From an uncultured Gammaproteobacteria bacterium (lineage in GTDB: Bacteria; Pseudomonadota; Gammaproteobacteria; Ga0077536), in the NCBI GenBank assembly GCA_942490995.1, contig CALOBG010000020.1:22004-86003 (forward strand): a stretch of 64,000 bases of DNA. Reading direction: 5' to 3'. The first letter of the stretch is position 1; the number at the start of each line of letters is the position of its first letter. This document shows, one piece after another, positions 28,106 through 31,185 of this stretch. Under the pieces are notes generated by a model. That model was given only the letters and a program-made list of their open reading frames with translations, ran no database searches and was not told the DNA's origin. The position numbers and the translations under genes are program-made.

Positions 28106-28144
28106 ACGCTCGGCGCGCCGGCCGCGCTAGATTTTGGTAGTGCC

Positions 28145-29062
28145 TCACTTTGAAATTTCGCGCTTCTTGTACGGTCCGCGCTTCTTCGGAGCCGGGGCCA
28201 GCGAGTCCATGAAGTCGATAATGTCTGCCCACTCCCAAACATTATCAGTCAGGCCCGCTTCCTGTGCTGGAGTAACTTTCAGCGTTTTGTGAATGCGGAG
28301 CCAGTTATAGAACACGGTGTAGATCGCGACCATATGGCAGTGGTTCGCGAACTTCTTGCTGAACGCATCGGTTCGCCGAGGATACCTCCGCATGTGCATC
28401 CGTATGCTGAGGTTTGCCCGTTCTACGTGGGATGTGGACACTTTCGACGGATTCGGCTTTCCCTGGACTATCGGCATGTGCGCCGCGGTGCATTCCGCCG
28501 GCGAATAACGGCGCTCGGGTGCGCCTTCCATAGACGCGCTGTAATGCTTGATTAGTCGGGCGAAATCCACGTCCGGGCCGAAGCTATCTTCCACGACTTC
28601 AACGTAGACGCTATGACCGTCAGCGGTGAGCTGGAAGCGGCCTTCGATTCGGTTAGCCAGATCGGACATGAATGCAAGGGCGTATTCCGAGTCGCGCTTA
28701 CCGACGAGGTACGAAATTAAAAGCTTGGAGTCGCTATCTAGCGCGGTCCACGTCCAAGTGTCGCCAGCACCATCTGGAGCGGCCGCAGCAGTAGAGCCGT
28801 TCCACTGCTTGGCATAGGTGAACGACCAGATTTCATCGGCTTGGACATTTTGAGGGGTAACGCCCCGAACCGTCTTGTCGTGGAAGATAGCGCAAGCTTC
28901 GCCCGCTTCGACCAATAGTTTCGCCACGGTATTCTGTGAAACGTCTGTCAGGCCAGCGGCGGCGCGCATGCTCATGCCCTCGCATAACATCGCAAGGATC
29001 TGCGCGCGTTGCTTGGTGTCCAATTTATTCATACTGAACATTATACTTGAGCGCTCTTGCAT
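28145..29062 (-). CDS. IS1-family transposase (single ORF, HTH + DDE)
   Basis: N-terminal HTH. DDE region resembles IS1 InsB (DEIW...TADG...[28 protein letters not shown] versus IS1 [28 protein letters not shown]). The last four codons lie inside the terminal IR, as in IS1. Confidence 0.8.
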   Translation of the reverse strand: [305 protein letters not shown]

Positions 29063-29151
29063 CTAAAGCATTTTGTTACTGTTGGTCGGCGCGATAATCT
29101 CTCACAAATTCGTGAACAGCTCGGTTGCAAATAATGCGGATCTTGACTTAA

Positions 29152-29682
29152 ATGTCAATAATAGAGTTATGCAACTACTGGAGTGCTCAAGGCGAGTTAC
29201 ACAACTACGTACCTCAGCTATCGCATGAATCGCGTAGTCGTAAATTGTATGTTTCACAATCAGTATCGGAATTGCTAAACGGAAACGAGACCACTCTAGA
29301 ACTACGTGGCGCTAGACTTCAGGCTGACCTTGATTTCTATGTTTCCGGGGGGCTTTTGCAGATGTGCCTAACTCCGCATAAAGCACAGGCTGCGTATTTA
29401 GGTCTCTTGGCACCGGTCGATAAGGGAATATGGGACATCCGAAGCAGAGACCCAAAGCCGGGACTCCGTGTCTTCGGGGGTTTTGCGGAGCCGGATACCT
29501 TCATTGCCTTAGTGTGGCGACAGCGGGACAAAATGGGCGACAAGAACGATCCGGAGTGGGTCAATGCAATTAATGAATGCGAAACGAAATGGAAACATTT
29601 TTTCCATTCATATCGTCCAGTAACTGGAGATCGGATAAGTGACTACATCACAGCTAACGCCATTGGAAGCGGAGATCCTTGA
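29152..29682 (+). CDS. Hypothetical protein (passenger ORF A, candidate toxin-like partner)
   Basis: 176-aa ORF with low GC. Overlaps the start of the downstream HTH gene. No recognisable domain. Confidence 0.5.
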   Translation: MSIIELCNYWSAQGELHNYVPQLSHESRSRKLYVSQSVSELLNGNETTLELRGARLQADLDFYVSGGLLQMCLTPHKAQAAYLGLLAPVDKGIWDIRSRDPKPGLRVFGGFAEPDTFIALVWRQRDKMGDKNDPEWVNAINECETKWKHFFHSYRPVTGDRISDYITANAIGSGDP

Positions 29683-30079
29683 AAGTAAAGAGTTATCGCC
29701 GCGAGCTATAACATATTTTCAAGAGCGCCTTCGAAATCGACTCCACGAAACGGTACTTAAAGAGTACCTGCGTCAACACGATCTTAACGGAACGCGCAAA
29801 TCGCAGATCGCCTTGCGGCTAGGGAAAGACCCCGCCCAAATTACAAGATGGCTGGGTGCCCCCGGCAATTGGACAATTGACACGATCAGCGATCTATTAA
29901 TTGCCATGGGCAGCGAGCTTTCACTTGGAGTCAGACAAGTGGCAAGCCAGGCCGCTCAAGCAAGCGATTTAGATAACATCGTTAACTTCACAGGCGAGTA
30001 CAAAATTAGCGCTGGAACTACTGCAAGAGCGTCCACCGAGAACAATCCACAAAACGACTTGTATATCTCTATTGGGTAG
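29639..30079 (+). CDS. XRE-family helix-turn-helix protein (passenger ORF B, candidate antitoxin/regulator)
   Basis: HTH_XRE-like segment TRKSQIALRLGKDPAQITRWLG...ISDLLIAMGSEL. GTG start at 29639 overlaps ORF A by 44 nt; the true start may be further downstream. Confidence 0.55.
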   Translation: MTTSQLTPLEAEILESKELSPRAITYFQERLRNRLHETVLKEYLRQHDLNGTRKSQIALRLGKDPAQITRWLGAPGNWTIDTISDLLIAMGSELSLGVRQVASQAAQASDLDNIVNFTGEYKISAGTTARASTENNPQNDLYISIG

Positions 30080-30084
30080 CAGAA

Positions 30085-30546
30085 GTGGATCACGTAACTT
30101 CAGCTATCTGCTATAAAGCGCTAGTCGATCAGCAAACCAATTTACTCACGCTAGTTGACCTTAGCGACGTTGCAATCTTTGAAGAAACGAAAGAAGCAAT
30201 AGAGCAAAAACTTAGCGAAGGCGGCGGGCAGTTTATATTCGGCCCCGTACACTATTCGTTGGTTAGTTTATGGTATCGAACTAATACGGACGTTCCGGAA
30301 TCAGGTTATTTCAGAATCACGCTTATAGCCCCGGACGGCAAAAAAGTATTGATTGCAGATGCTCAAGAAATCAGCTTGGAAAACGATATAAGCGCGCGGA
30401 CTATTGCTGTCATGAAGGCATTTCCGTTTAGGGGGTTAGGACGTTATACGTTCGCTATACACAAGCGGGAGAACACCAATGGCCGGTGGACGCTCTGTAC
30501 AAAATTGCCGCTAATTATTCGATGCCGAGACCCAATTAATCCTTAG
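30085..30546 (+). CDS. Hypothetical protein (passenger ORF C)
   Basis: 153-aa ORF starting 6 bp after ORF B, with GTG start. Predicted beta-rich. No recognisable domain. Confidence 0.45.
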   Translation: MDHVTSAICYKALVDQQTNLLTLVDLSDVAIFEETKEAIEQKLSEGGGQFIFGPVHYSLVSLWYRTNTDVPESGYFRITLIAPDGKKVLIADAQEISLENDISARTIAVMKAFPFRGLGRYTFAIHKRENTNGRWTLCTKLPLIIRCRDPINP

Positions 30547-30793
30547 AGCTAAATTTCTTCCATCGAGCTTTCGCTGCCTTCTTGGCGATTTCGTGGCGCC
30601 GCTCGGCCGACAATTGCTTCGACCTGGCTACACCGCCCTTCGTTCCGCCCTTCCGGCCTAGCTCAACGGCCGCAGGATTTTTTCCTTCGTCTAGATTTTC
30701 GTCCTCAGCCTCGCCCGTAGCTATTTCCATGACACGCACGGCATTCCCGATAACGTCCGCCGGGCGCTTTGATTTCCTGAGTTTGTCAGTCAT
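30536..30793 (-). CDS. Small basic hypothetical protein adjacent to the distal IR
   Basis: 85-aa Lys/Arg/Gly-rich protein (GRKGGTKGGVARSKQLSAERRHEIAKKAAKARW). Occupies the position that insA holds in IS1 but has no Cys zinc finger. Confidence 0.4.
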   Translation of the reverse strand: MTDKLRKSKRPADVIGNAVRVMEIATGEAEDENLDEGKNPAAVELGRKGGTKGGVARSKQLSAERRHEIAKKAAKARWKKFSSKD

Positions 30794-30852
30794 GGGCTTA
30801 TTATAGCGCCATGGGTCGATTTCTCTTTTTTGATTTCAAACTGAGGCACTAC

Positions 30853-31185
30853 CTAGATTTTTATCGGTTTGAAACGTTCGAAACCCGCGCCGTCGGAGTT
30901 GCGCGCGCCGCGTTGCGCGGGTGATTGTTTGCCGAGCGTTTTCCAGTCACTTTTACCGAACAGGGCGGCGTCATAAGCGCGGCGCTTGCGCGTATCGCTC
31001 AATACCGCAAACGCCTGGTTGATCACCGCGGCGTTCCATTCGTCACCGCCGAGATCGGGATGGGCCTTGAGTTTCTGCATCAGGGTGCGGTAGCTGGCTC
31101 GCACGATTTCCAGCGGCGCGTCCGGCTGCACGTAGAGTACGCGGTAGTAATTTCGCTGGTTCGGCTTGGATTTCCCGTCGGCCAC
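30853..31185 (-). CDS. J-domain protein (DnaJ-like co-chaperone, J domain only)
   Basis: J domain with HPD motif (YYRVLYVQPDA...KAHPDLGG...AYD). GTG start at 31185 with AGGA upstream; the ORF opens at 31212. Its TAG stop is formed at the element boundary. Confidence 0.7.
   Translation of the reverse strand: MADGKSKPNQRNYYRVLYVQPDAPLEIVRASYRTLMQKLKAHPDLGGDEWNAAVINQAFAVLSDTRKRRAYDAALFGKSDWKTLGKQSPAQRGARNSDGAGFERFKPIKI

What the first reader, a model, noticed from the sequence alone, without database searches (positions are those of the whole stretch)
28128..30861. Cargo-carrying IS1-family transposon inserted between two convergent genes
**Boundaries.** A 2718-bp low-GC block is bounded by 21-bp terminal inverted repeats. 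Both start GGTAGTG and they match at 20 of 21 positions; compare the IS1 end GGTGATG. The block is flanked by a perfect 8-bp direct repeat, TAGATTTT. An 8-bp TSD is within the 8-9 bp range made by IS1.

**Contents.** One end carries a 305-aa single-ORF IS1-like transposase whose 3' end runs into the IR, as in IS1. The distal IR lies 1.7 kb away rather than just upstream of the transposase. Four passenger ORFs sit between them, so the whole unit appears to have moved as one element.

**Insertion site.** The element sits in the 30-bp gap between a secreted methyltransferase-like gene and a convergent J-domain gene. Both stop codons are preserved. The J-domain gene's TAG stop is formed from 1 nt of the IR plus 2 nt of the TSD, and removing the element rebuilds the same stop.

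IS1-family elements with passenger genes are uncommon, and this is the clearest horizontally acquired locus in the window.
Basis: partly seen in the sequence, partly recalled or inferred. Interest (0 to 1): 0.8.

Follow-up and report, generated by a model that had tools for sequence, protein, structure and literature searches.

The report
IS1-related transposon with swappable cargo
This is an intact, recently inserted 2.7-kb mobile element from a large and apparently undescribed group of IS1-related transposons, which pair a transposase and a conserved small protein with an exchangeable slot that usually holds anti-phage or toxin-antitoxin genes.

Summary
A 2718-bp, low-GC block (28136-30853) has 21-bp terminal inverted repeats matching at 20/21 positions and a perfect 8-bp duplication, TAGATTTT. 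It sits between a methyltransferase-like gene and a convergent J-domain gene. Related genomes have the same gene pair uninterrupted, and one keeps a single copy of the target octamer.

The transposase is a remote but real homolog of IS1 InsB.
- The 85-aa ORF next to the distal repeat is a core gene, not a passenger. It is present in 63 of 63 complete relatives, and a 1365-bp cargo-free form contains only this gene and the transposase.
- Cargo is the rule in this clade, not the exception. Sixty-three complete elements measure 2.4-6.2 kb, all with 8-bp duplications.
- Cargo turns over quickly and is dominated by defence or toxin-antitoxin modules (PD-Lambda-2-like, Rosmer, SoFic, AbiD, MazF and others).

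The window's cargo is a recurrent three-gene operon of unknown function: a 176-aa protein, an HTH protein and a DUF6941-like protein. It is plausibly a toxin-antitoxin or defence module, but this is not shown. I found no published description of this clade.

The parts
28128..28135 (.). Left copy of the 8-bp target-site duplication, TAGATTTT
   Evidence: It is identical to 30854-30861. A single copy is present at the unoccupied orthologous site L086:4778-4785.
28136..28156 (+). Transposase-proximal terminal inverted repeat, GGTAGTGCCTCACTTTGAAAT
   Evidence: It matches the family consensus GGTAGTGnnTCAsTTTGAAAT and shares the tip GGTnnTGC with the IS1A repeat.
28145..29041 (-). Single-ORF DDE transposase. 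It is 298 aa as called at NCBI (P0001), the conserved start MNKL is at 29032, and the longest ORF runs to 29062. The stop codon lies inside the repeat.
   Evidence: Pfam DDE_Tnp_IS1 scores 27.6 bits against a cut-off of 24.1, with HTH_23 at the N-terminus. NCBIfam IS1 scores 66 bits, below its cut-off of 100. The family profile matches IS1A InsB in hhalign at 91.3% probability, E 9.5e-7. All invariant family residues are present.
29040..29067 (-). Promoter-like site for the transposase (TTTAGA, 16 nt, TATAAT), ending 7 nt before the conserved ATG. This suggests a leaderless or very short-leader transcript.
   Evidence: A conserved TTGAC, roughly 17 nt, then a TATAT-like box abuts the ATG in relatives. 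The function is inferred.
29152..29682 (+). Cargo gene 1: a 176-aa protein of unknown function (cluster C9) with a conserved WDIRSRDPxPGxRVFGxF motif. It is a possible Gp49/RelE-like toxin, but this is unproven.
   Evidence: The same family is cargo in L007, L018, L033 and L037. There are 758 representatives in the 50%-clustered library. Five of 70 members weakly hit Pfam Gp49, best E 0.0057. There is no HigB similarity and no PADLOC hit.
29639..30079 (+). Cargo gene 2: a 146-aa helix-turn-helix protein (cluster C14). It overlaps gene 1 by 44 nt and is a putative antitoxin or regulator.
   Evidence: There are weak PADLOC hits to PDC-M64C/B HTH components (27 bits) and PHROG transcriptional-regulator hits. 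The same gene follows C9 in L033 and L037, with a similar overlap.
30085..30546 (+). Cargo gene 3: a 153-aa DUF6941-like protein
   Evidence: Pfam DUF6941 scores 21 bits, below its cut-off of 27. The positional equivalents in L018, L033 and L037 (cluster C12) score 26.2 bits.
30536..30793 (-). Core backbone gene: an 85-aa basic protein (KRPADVIGNAVRVMEIATGE, an acidic linker, then GGxKGGxARxxxLSxExRxEIAKKAAKARWKK). It is not a passenger.
   Evidence: An HMM of this protein hits 63 of 63 complete elements. The gene always lies just inside the distal repeat on the same strand as the transposase. It is present in the 1365-bp cargo-free element L293. There are more than 2500 homologs and no Pfam, NCBIfam or PDB match. 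The AlphaFold model is helical but low-confidence, pLDDT 66.6.
30800..30805 (-). TATAAT box 6 nt upstream of the small gene's ATG (30793)
   Evidence: Read directly from the sequence. L002 has the same arrangement. Similar CATATT boxes 6-7 nt before the ATG occur in the short-spacer relatives. The function is inferred.
30833..30853 (-). Distal terminal inverted repeat, GGTAGTGCCTCAGTTTGAAAT on the minus strand
30854..30861 (.). Right copy of the 8-bp target-site duplication, TAGATTTT
27272..28105 (+). Context, not part of the element: the flanking methyltransferase-like gene. Its terminator-like hairpin (28112-28128) is followed by the T-run that became the duplication.
30853..31212 (-). Context, not part of the element: the flanking J-domain gene. 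Its last two codons and stop overlap the duplicated target.
   Evidence: Pfam DnaJ, E 8e-11. The orthologue in L086 ends in the same ...PIKI*.

Best explanation
The block 28136-30853 is one intact transposable element that inserted as a unit, probably recently.

**Backbone.** A single-ORF DDE transposase, remotely related to IS1 InsB, recognises the two 21-bp terminal repeats. It joins the element to a target cut with an 8-bp stagger, which produces the TAGATTTT duplication. This step is inferred from the geometry and from how DDE transposases are known to work.

The element belongs to a large clade found mostly in Alphaproteobacteria, here in a gammaproteobacterial lineage. The clade's backbone has two genes at opposite ends. 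One is an ~80-aa basic protein just inside one repeat. The other is the transposase, which runs into (or lies near) the other repeat. The region between them, and in some members a second region downstream of the transposase, is a cargo slot.

**Cargo.** Slot content is replaced much faster than the backbone diverges. Where it can be annotated, it is mostly anti-phage defence or toxin-antitoxin modules. In this copy the slot holds a three-gene operon transcribed opposite to the backbone genes: a 176-aa protein, an HTH protein and a DUF6941-like protein. The trio recurs in other members. I infer it is a toxin-antitoxin or abortive-infection-type module (about 50% likely).

**Small protein.** I infer the small basic protein is a nucleic-acid-binding accessory or regulator of transposition (about 40% likely). 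It is not homologous to IS1 InsA.
For: **Ends and duplication**
- establish the repeats and the duplication.

**Empty orthologous sites**
- Searches show the site unoccupied in related genomes.

**Same ends with different cargo in relatives**
- L001 is 3343 bp, has the duplication CGGGTTTC and splits a beta-lactamase-family gene.
- L002 is 3203 bp with the duplication GATTATTT.

**Family survey**
- Sixty-three complete elements of 2437-6242 bp carry 8-bp duplications matching at 7-8 of 8 positions.
- A further 62 repeat pairs with duplications were found in metagenome and viral contigs. They include miniature derivatives, transposase-less cassettes and a 1365-bp two-gene form.
- 111 reconstructed target sites show a symmetric CAA-N7-[8 bp]-N7-TTG preference.

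**Backbone**
- The small protein is present in 63 of 63 complete elements.
- DNA similarity among the window element, L001 and L002 is confined to the repeat plus small gene, and to the transposase through to the other repeat.

**IS1 relationship**
-.

**Cargo annotation**
- PD-Lambda-2_B 180 bits with HigB.
- RmrA 179 bits and RmrT 95-295 bits.
- SoFic 183 bits.
- PDC-S13 285 bits.
- HEC-04 172 bits.
- AbiD/Abi_2, MazF, STAND/AAA NTPases and a type IIG-like methyltransferase.
- RES-Xre and XRE neighbours occur in annotated plasmids.

**Cargo turnover**
- Only 3 of 16 element pairs with transposases at least 90% identical share any cargo.

**Recurrence of the window's trio**
-.
Against: - Transposition activity has not been shown. 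There is only one copy in the window, and no identical element was found at a second site.
- The IS1 assignment is remote. NCBIfam IS1 scores 66 bits against a cut-off of 100. There is no InsA, no frameshift and no zinc finger.
- The window's own cargo matches no known defence system in PADLOC. The toxin idea rests on weak Gp49 hits in 5 of 70 relatives. Profile comparison with HigB is negative, and the structure model was unusable.
- The small protein's role is pure inference. Its model is low-confidence, and miniature derivatives lack it.
- The defence-cargo statement was not tested against a genomic background rate, and roughly half the cargo genes have no annotation.
Confidence: 0.85

Rival explanations
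1. The real element is an ordinary ~1-kb insertion sequence around the transposase. The distal 21-bp repeat and the 8-bp direct repeat are then coincidental, and the four other ORFs are resident host genes.
For: Canonical IS1 is 768 bp with its ends immediately around its genes.
Against: There is no repeat-like sequence near the transposase start: only two matches exist in 64 kb even with 3 mismatches, against 0.00 expected. Related genomes have the two flanking genes adjacent, with none of the four ORFs between them. Sixty-two other loci repeat the same architecture with their own duplications. The whole block is low-GC.
Confidence: 0.01
2. The element is real, but it should not be filed under IS1. 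It would belong to a sister family, either IS1595-like or a family of its own, that shares only an ancient DDE core with IS1.
For: - NCBIfam's IS1 equivalog scores 66 bits, below its cut-off of 100.
- BLASTP against InsB aligns only 43 aa at E 1e-6.
- It is a single ORF with no InsA homolog and no Zn_Tnp_IS1 hit.
- The duplication is always 8 bp, which from my own knowledge is typical of IS1595.
- It has a distinct conserved accessory gene.
Against: - Pfam DDE_Tnp_IS1 is above its gathering score, and no IS1595 domain was reported at E up to 0.1.
- hhalign to InsB gives 91% over 116 columns spanning the DE, TDG and ERxNLxxR...FSK motifs.
- The repeat tip GGTnnTGC is shared with IS1A, and the transposase stop lies inside the repeat as in IS1.
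- NCBI and JGI name relatives 'IS1 family transposase'.
Confidence: 0.12
3. The element is an immobile relic. It inserted once and is now fixed, with the transposase no longer active, so only the cargo matters to the host.
For: It is a single copy in the window. The exact transposase sequence was seen on one contig only. No activity data exist.
Against: The transposase ORF is full-length with every invariant family residue. The repeats match at 20 of 21 positions, and the duplication is perfect. A 14-point GC deficit remains unameliorated. Related genomes lack the element. Together these point to a recent event and an intact machine.
Confidence: 0.1
4. The cargo trio is not an anti-phage or toxin-antitoxin module. 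It would instead serve the element itself, for example in regulating transposition or in target choice, or it has an unrelated host function.
For: None of the three proteins has a significant hit in PADLOC or Pfam. No relatives of the 176-aa protein were found in viral contigs. The HTH protein could regulate the divergent transposase promoter.
Against: - The trio occupies the same slot that holds recognised defence or toxin-antitoxin systems in sister elements.
- It is absent from most family members, so it is not needed for transposition.
- Overlapping ORFs, with a small protein followed by an HTH protein, resemble toxin-antitoxin operons.
- There are recurrent weak Gp49 (RelE-superfamily) hits.
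Confidence: 0.4

Closest known systems
IS1 (E. coli IS1A, insA/insB')
   Same: The DDE catalytic core is homologous to InsB (hhalign 91%, covering the DE, TDG and ERxNLxxR...FSK motifs). The terminal repeat tip GGTnnTGC is shared, and the transposase stop codon lies inside the terminal repeat. The target duplication is short (8 bp here; IS1 makes 8-9 bp, from my own knowledge). There is an N-terminal HTH.
   Different: The transposase is a single 295-298-aa ORF rather than insA plus a -1 frameshift into insB. There is no InsA homolog and no zinc-finger domain hit. A different ~80-aa accessory gene sits at the opposite end. The element is 2.7 kb with three cargo genes, against 768 bp with none. 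Sequence identity is very low.
Transporter insertion sequences (tIS): IS with passenger genes, described for the IS1595 family and noted for other families
   Same: A single transposase and one pair of terminal repeats enclose genes unrelated to transposition. The concept and its source (Siguier et al. 2009) are cited in PMC3129680 and PMC7986276. From my own knowledge, ISfinder lists an IS1 subgroup (ISMhu11) reaching about 4.6 kb. I could not verify this here.
   Different: In this clade cargo is the rule. Among the 63 complete elements from the genome survey none is bare, and one 1365-bp bare form turned up elsewhere. The backbone includes a second conserved gene. Cargo is swapped between near-identical backbones and is enriched for defence or toxin-antitoxin modules. 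No IS1595 domain was detected.
Tn7-like transposons with defence cargo (Benler et al. 2021, PMC8649781)
   Same: Both are transposons whose variable cargo is dominated by defence systems (abstract).
   Different: The transposition machinery is unrelated: a multi-protein TnsABC(D/E) system against a single IS1-like DDE protein. Tn7-like elements are much larger and use targeted insertion. Here the elements are 2.4-6 kb, usually carry one system, and show only a weak symmetric target preference.
Mobile insertion cassettes and MITEs
   Same: Relatives include pairs of the same repeats 100-600 bp apart with 8-bp duplications and no genes. Others are transposase-less cassettes of 0.7-2.5 kb that keep the small gene, with or without cargo. 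These are presumably mobilised in trans.
   Different: The window's element is autonomous, with an intact transposase.
Type II toxin-antitoxin / PD-Lambda-2-like three-gene modules (HigB-like toxin, HTH protein, third gene)
   Same: The window's cargo has the same layout and slot position as the PD-Lambda-2-like trio in 16 sister elements: a small upstream protein, an overlapping HTH protein and a third ~150-aa protein.
   Different: There is no detectable homology between the 176-aa protein and HigB. The HTH protein lacks the M78 peptidase domain. The third gene is DUF6941-like rather than the C3 family.

Membership tests
IS1 family | Transposase matches the IS1 DDE profile (Pfam PF03400) above its curated threshold | tested here: met
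   27.6 bits against a gathering score of 24.1, covering residues 206-248 only. Precomputed PF03400 hits are recorded on nearly all 120 listed homologs.
IS1 family | Transposase reaches NCBIfam's IS1 equivalog cut-off (NF033558) | tested here: not met
   66.1 bits against a cut-off of 100. Two stretches cover residues 15-159.
IS1 family | Homology to InsB across the catalytic D, D and E regions | tested here: met
   hhalign of the 30-sequence family profile against IS1A InsB gives 91.3% probability and E 9.5e-7 over 116 columns, aligning ADEIW/MDEQW, TADGH/MTDGW and [32 protein letters not shown]..FSKS.
IS1 family | Terminal inverted repeats beginning GGnnnTG (family consensus recalled from ISfinder) and about 20-25 bp long | tested here: met
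   GGTAGTG... over 21 bp, compared with IS1A GGTGATGCTGCC... read from MG1655.
IS1 family | Target duplication of 8-9 bp | tested here: met
   8 bp here and in all 111 perfect-duplication relatives.
IS1 family (classical group) | Two ORFs, insA and insB', fused by a programmed -1 frameshift, with InsA acting as repressor | tested here: not met
   A single uninterrupted ORF. The small accessory protein shows no similarity to InsA (hhalign 0.04%). From my own knowledge, single-ORF subgroups are accepted within the family.
IS1 family (classical group) | N-terminal zinc finger followed by an HTH | tested here: not met
   The HTH is present (HTH_23, residues 15-49). There is no Zn_Tnp_IS1 hit, and no CxxC pairs occur in the N-terminal 60 residues.
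IS1595 family | Transposase carries DDE_Tnp_IS1595 or Zn_Tnp_IS1595 domains | tested here: not met
   No such Pfam hit at E up to 0.1.
Transporter IS (tIS) | Genes unrelated to transposition enclosed by one pair of repeats with a single transposase, the whole flanked by one target duplication | tested here: met
   Three cargo genes lie between the backbone genes. The duplication flanks the whole block. An empty site is found in relatives.
Compound (composite) transposon | Two copies of an IS bracketing the cargo | tested here: not met
   There is only one transposase gene, and the distal end is a bare 21-bp repeat.
Known anti-phage defence systems (PADLOC-DB 2.0) | The window's cargo proteins match the components of a described system | tested here: not met
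   Only weak HTH-level hits of the 146-aa protein to the candidate system PDC-M64 (27 bits). There are no hits for the 176-aa or 153-aa proteins.
Type II toxin-antitoxin (RelE/HigB/Gp49-type toxin with HTH antitoxin) | Toxin homologous to the RelE/ParE superfamily, a neighbouring HTH antitoxin, and toxicity that is neutralised | tested here: inconclusive
   Five of 70 family members weakly hit Pfam Gp49, best E 0.0057, below threshold. HigB profile comparison is negative. An overlapping HTH gene is present. Toxicity cannot be tested with these tools.

The most novel reading that the evidence does not exclude
The window's element represents an abundant clade of IS1-derived 'cassette shuttles' that I could not find described. 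The clade has three features. The backbone is a fixed pair of genes, a transposase and a novel ~80-aa basic accessory protein. The central slot is re-loaded with a different defence or toxin-antitoxin system on very short evolutionary timescales. The clade has also spawned miniature and transposase-less derivatives and is common in prophage-like contigs.

If this holds, the slot is a ready-made discovery handle for new immune systems. The window's uncharacterised trio (176-aa protein, HTH protein, DUF6941-like protein) would be one of them.
Probability: 0.45. Interest if true: 0.75.

Novelty: new variant of a known kind. Interest (0 to 1): 0.6.

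Why it matters
For this genome, the element is a clean case of a recent horizontal acquisition that delivered a three-gene operon without damaging either neighbouring gene.

The family-level picture matters more. Small single-transposase elements are usually treated as gene-free insertion sequences and are annotated only as 'IS1 family transposase' plus 'hypothetical proteins'. Here a whole clade carries, and rapidly exchanges, defence and toxin-antitoxin modules. Such elements could be an overlooked route by which single immune systems move between chromosomes, plasmids and prophages.

The precisely bounded cargo slot could be mined for new systems. Roughly half the cargo families have no annotation. 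The conserved small protein is an untested candidate for a new transposition accessory or regulator.

Tried and rejected
- **Exact-sequence look-ups.** Look-ups of the longest-ORF versions of the transposase and both flanking proteins, and of P0001, found nothing. I reached contexts through homologs instead.
- **Plasmid DNA search.** It gave only short transposase matches.
- **Small protein.** There is no PDB, NCBIfam or Pfam match. The AlphaFold model had pLDDT 66.6, too weak for a fold search. It is not related to InsA. The only hit is its C-terminal basic motif against the N-terminus of phrog_2384, the same motif shared with the P63C-domain cargo proteins.
- **176-aa cargo protein.** The idea that it is HigB-like was not supported (hhalign 0.4% and 0.1%). 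The single-sequence AlphaFold model was unusable, pLDDT 41.8. No PDB match was found with a 70-sequence profile, and no relatives in viral contigs.
- **Rfam.** Nothing in or around the element.
- **Leaderless promoter for the small gene.** I hypothesised a universal TATAAT-N7-ATG arrangement. It holds only for the short-spacer subset; long-spacer elements have a Shine-Dalgarno leader instead.
- **Literature.** Seven searches found the general tIS concept but no description of this clade. The ISfinder reviews themselves are not in the library.
- **Closer relatives.** The metagenome scan found no closer relative or second copy of the window's exact element.

Full report
**1. The observation.**
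- The left repeat at 28136-28156 is GGTAGTGCCTCACTTTGAAAT. The reverse complement of 30833-30853 is GGTAGTGCCTCAGTTTGAAAT, so the two match at 20 of 21 positions.
- TAGATTTT flanks both ends, at 28128-28135 and 30854-30861.
- With up to three mismatches the 21-mer occurs exactly twice in the 64-kb window, against none expected in shuffles.
- The 2718-bp block has GC 0.506 against 0.645 in the flanks. It is the only strong GC dip in the window.
- The transposase ORF (28145-29062, minus strand) ends inside the repeat.
- The J-domain gene's TAG stop is rc(CTA) at 30853-30855. Because 28127 is C, excision would rebuild it.

Two details need correction. The two stop codons of the reconstructed empty site are 21 nt apart, not 30. 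The target octamer overlaps the last two codons and the stop of the J-domain gene. It is also the T-run following a terminator-like hairpin downstream of the methyltransferase gene.

**2. Empty sites.** Homologs of the flanking methyltransferase led to orthologous loci.
- In L083-L085 (GCA_041984765.1 and two read-set assemblies; methyltransferase 81% identical) the gene order matches the window: glyoxalase, thioesterase and methyltransferase, then convergent DnaJ, Transglut_core2 and the F420H2-dependent quinone reductase-family gene. The methyltransferase and DnaJ genes are 15 bp apart, and no element sequence is present.
- In L086 (79% identical) the J-domain gene ends ...RPIKI* on a single, uninterrupted CTAGATTTTTAT. 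This is the exact target octamer, unoccupied.

**3. The distal repeat is a true end.** The exhaustive protein search returned thousands of ~300-aa single-ORF relatives, many named 'IS1 family transposase'. The two closest (78% and 77% identical) were located on long contigs. Each has the same 21-bp repeats, and each has its own perfect 8-bp duplication.
- In L001 the repeats are 3343 bp apart and the duplication is CGGGTTTC. This element splits a beta-lactamase-family gene.
- In L002 they are 3203 bp apart and the duplication is GATTATTT.

A genome-collection scan with a transposase alignment gave 80 more loci, mostly Alphaproteobacteria at 56-63% identity.

A script that pairs repeat-like sites and checks for duplications found complete elements in 63 of 83 loci. 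Their lengths run from 2437 to 6242 bp, with a median of 3252 bp. Loci without a pair are mostly truncated contigs. None of the 63 is a bare ~1-kb IS. In about half of them extra genes also lie between the transposase and the nearer repeat.

**4. Backbone and cargo.** DNA similarity among the window element, L001 and L002 is confined to two regions, at 74-78% identity. One is the repeat plus the small gene. The other runs from about 15 nt upstream of the transposase ATG to the other repeat. Everything in between is unrelated.

An HMM of the small ORF next to the distal repeat (window 30536-30793) hits 63 of 63 complete elements. The gene always lies 50-610 bp inside that repeat, on the transposase strand. 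It is therefore a backbone gene, not a passenger.

Among these were 62 further duplication-flanked repeat pairs:
- about 26 gene-less miniature elements of 100-600 bp;
- transposase-less cassettes of 0.7-2.5 kb that retain the small gene;
- full elements of 2.0-4.8 kb;
- one 1365-bp element, L293:2632-3996, containing only the small gene and the transposase. This defines the minimal autonomous unit.

Across 111 reconstructed targets there is a symmetric preference, CAA-N7-[8 bp]-N7-TTG. Genuine transposase-target contacts would produce this pattern.

**5. Relationship to IS1.**
- *In favour.* Pfam's IS1 DDE model is just above threshold (27.6 against 24.1 bits), and an HTH is present at the N-terminus. 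The family profile aligns to E. coli IS1A InsB with 91% probability over 116 columns covering the DE, TDG and ERxNLxxR...FSK motifs. The repeat shares GGTnnTGC with the IS1A repeat, and in both elements the transposase stop codon lies within the repeat.
- *Against.* NCBIfam's IS1 equivalog scores 66 bits, below its cut-off of 100. There is no frameshifted two-ORF arrangement and no zinc-finger hit. The small protein is unrelated to InsA.
- *Alternative family.* No IS1595 domain was detected.

I therefore file the element as a distant, single-ORF branch of the IS1 family. There is a modest chance (about 12%) that specialists would treat it as a sister family.

**6. Cargo across the family.**
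- Sixteen elements carry a trio of a HigB-like toxin, an HTH-M78 protein (PD-Lambda-2_B, 180 bits) and a ~160-aa protein.
- About eight carry Rosmer-like pairs (RmrA 179 bits, RmrT 95-295 bits).
- Others carry SoFic (183 bits), PDC-S13 (285 bits), HEC-04/AAA_21 (172 bits), AbiD/Abi_2, MazF/PemK, STAND/AAA NTPases, an SDH-type protease, P63C-domain proteins or a 967-aa type IIG-like methyltransferase. Some have nested IS630 or IS5 insertions.
- In annotated plasmids the neighbours include an XRE regulator and a RES-Xre pair. The records label only 'IS1 family transposase' and 'hypothetical protein'.

Cargo turnover is fast. Of 16 element pairs whose transposases are at least 90% identical, only 3 share any cargo cluster. 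L051 and L052, at 97.6% identity, share none.

I did not test enrichment against a genomic background, and roughly half the cargo clusters have no annotation.

**7. The window's cargo.** Three same-strand genes run opposite to the backbone genes:
- a 176-aa protein (29152-29682);
- a 146-aa HTH protein (29639-30079), overlapping the first gene by 44 nt;
- a 153-aa DUF6941-like protein (30085-30546).

The same ordered trio occurs in L033 and L037, and parts of it occur in L018 and L007. It is therefore a functional cassette rather than a chance set of ORFs.

The 176-aa family has 758 representatives in the 50%-clustered library. It has no significant Pfam, PADLOC or PDB match. Five of 70 members weakly hit Gp49, a RelE/ParE-superfamily toxin family (best E 0.0057). 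Profile comparison with the HigB-like cargo of sister elements is negative. The single-sequence structure model was unusable.

The layout and the slot it occupies suggest a toxin-antitoxin or abortive-infection-type module. That is an inference, at about 50%.

**8. The small protein and regulation.** The small protein has more than 2500 homologs of 76-90 aa. They are unannotated or loosely named 'RNA-binding protein'. It has a conserved N-terminal KRPxDxxxxAxxxxxIATGE segment, an acidic linker and a basic C-terminal helix (GGxARAxxLxxExRxxIAxKAAxARW). Its model is helical but low-confidence. Its C-terminal motif also occurs at the N-terminus of P63C-domain phage proteins.

I propose it is a nucleic-acid-binding accessory or regulator of transposition, at about 40%. 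The reasons are that it belongs to the minimal two-gene unit and sits next to a repeat.

The transposase has a conserved -35/-10 pair that ends 4-7 nt before its ATG. This suggests a leaderless or very short-leader transcript. In many relatives a palindrome overlaps the -35 box.

**9. Comparison with what is known, and novelty.** The general category, an IS with passenger genes (tIS), is established (Siguier et al. 2009, as cited in PMC3129680 and PMC7986276). From memory, ISfinder lists an IS1 subgroup of up to about 4.6 kb.

Seven literature searches did not find four things:
- a description of this clade;
- its obligate small accessory gene;
- its rapid cargo exchange;
- its defence-rich cargo.

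The nearest functional parallel is the defence cargo of Tn7-like transposons (PMC8649781), which use unrelated machinery.

I rate the finding a new variant of a known kind. ISfinder could not be queried, so this carries some uncertainty.

**10. Verdict.** Interest is moderate to high (0.6). The insertion itself is ordinary biology. The family it reveals is a compact, abundant IS1-derived vehicle with a swappable, defence-rich cargo slot and an uncharacterised core protein, and it deserves follow-up.

Noticed in passing
window 30691-30699: CTAGATTTT, the target octamer plus the preceding C, occurs a third time inside the element, within the small gene. It also occurs at the two junction copies (28127-28135 and 30853-30861). 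A 9-mer would recur in 2.7 kb by chance about 2% of the time. I have no explanation.
   Followed up: no
window 28112-28135: A GC-rich hairpin (GGCGCGCCGGCCGCGCT) downstream of the methyltransferase gene is followed by the T-run that became the duplication. The element therefore landed in a terminator-like T-tract, and the left duplicate keeps hairpin and T-run intact.
   Followed up: partly
L090-L329 (e.g. L095:2505-2799, L116:3329-3753, L218:2619-3437, L313:498-2479): Non-autonomous derivatives with the same repeats and 8-bp duplications. About 26 are gene-less miniature elements of 100-600 bp. Several transposase-less cassettes of 0.7-2.5 kb retain the small gene, with or without cargo.
   Followed up: partly
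L293:2632-3996: A 1365-bp cargo-free element containing only the small gene (97 aa) and the transposase (301 aa), with a perfect duplication TGCCAGTG. It is the minimal autonomous form of the family.
   Followed up: yes
111 reconstructed target sites from L001-L329 and the window: A weak symmetric target preference, CAA-N7-[8-bp duplication]-N7-TTG, with S at both ends of the duplication. The window's site matches the TTG half only.
   Followed up: partly
Upstream of the transposase in L005, L048, L059, L065, L070 and others; left-end spacer of L004, L005, L030, L038, L058: A palindrome of the form ATGCTTGAC...GTCAAGCAT overlaps the -35 box of the transposase promoter. A similar ATGCTTA.CG..AAGCAT lies near the left-end promoter in long-spacer elements. 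This may be a shared operator. It is not clearly present in the window's copy.
   Followed up: no
L005, L030, L058 (between the distal repeat and the small gene): About half the elements (31 of 63) have an extra 230-590 bp between the distal repeat and the small gene. In a subset it encodes a ~50-55-aa ORF with two CxxC pairs (zinc-ribbon-like), preceded by AGGAGG. The window's element lacks it.
   Followed up: partly
L002:1-16900; viral-contig loci L210-L329: The L002 element lies next to phage structural genes (tail tube, tail terminator) and a GmrSD/methylase cluster. The family's repeat occurs in more than 120 IMG/VR contigs, so these elements often reside in prophage-like regions.
   Followed up: partly
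L023, L065, L025, L052 (inside the cargo region): IS630-type (DDE_3) and IS5-like transposase genes are nested inside the cargo slot of some elements. This accounts for some of the longest members.
   Followed up: partly
L007 and L009 (same MAG, MPMX01): One genome carries two family members whose transposases are 94.7% identical but whose cargo differs (the 176-aa family in one, an SDH-type protease in the other). This is direct evidence of cargo exchange within a lineage.
   Followed up: partly
L086:2007-3168: In the genome with the empty target site, an unrelated IS (rve integrase-type with HTH_38) sits between the glyoxalase and thioesterase genes just upstream. This neighbourhood is a recurrent landing zone for mobile elements.
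   Followed up: no
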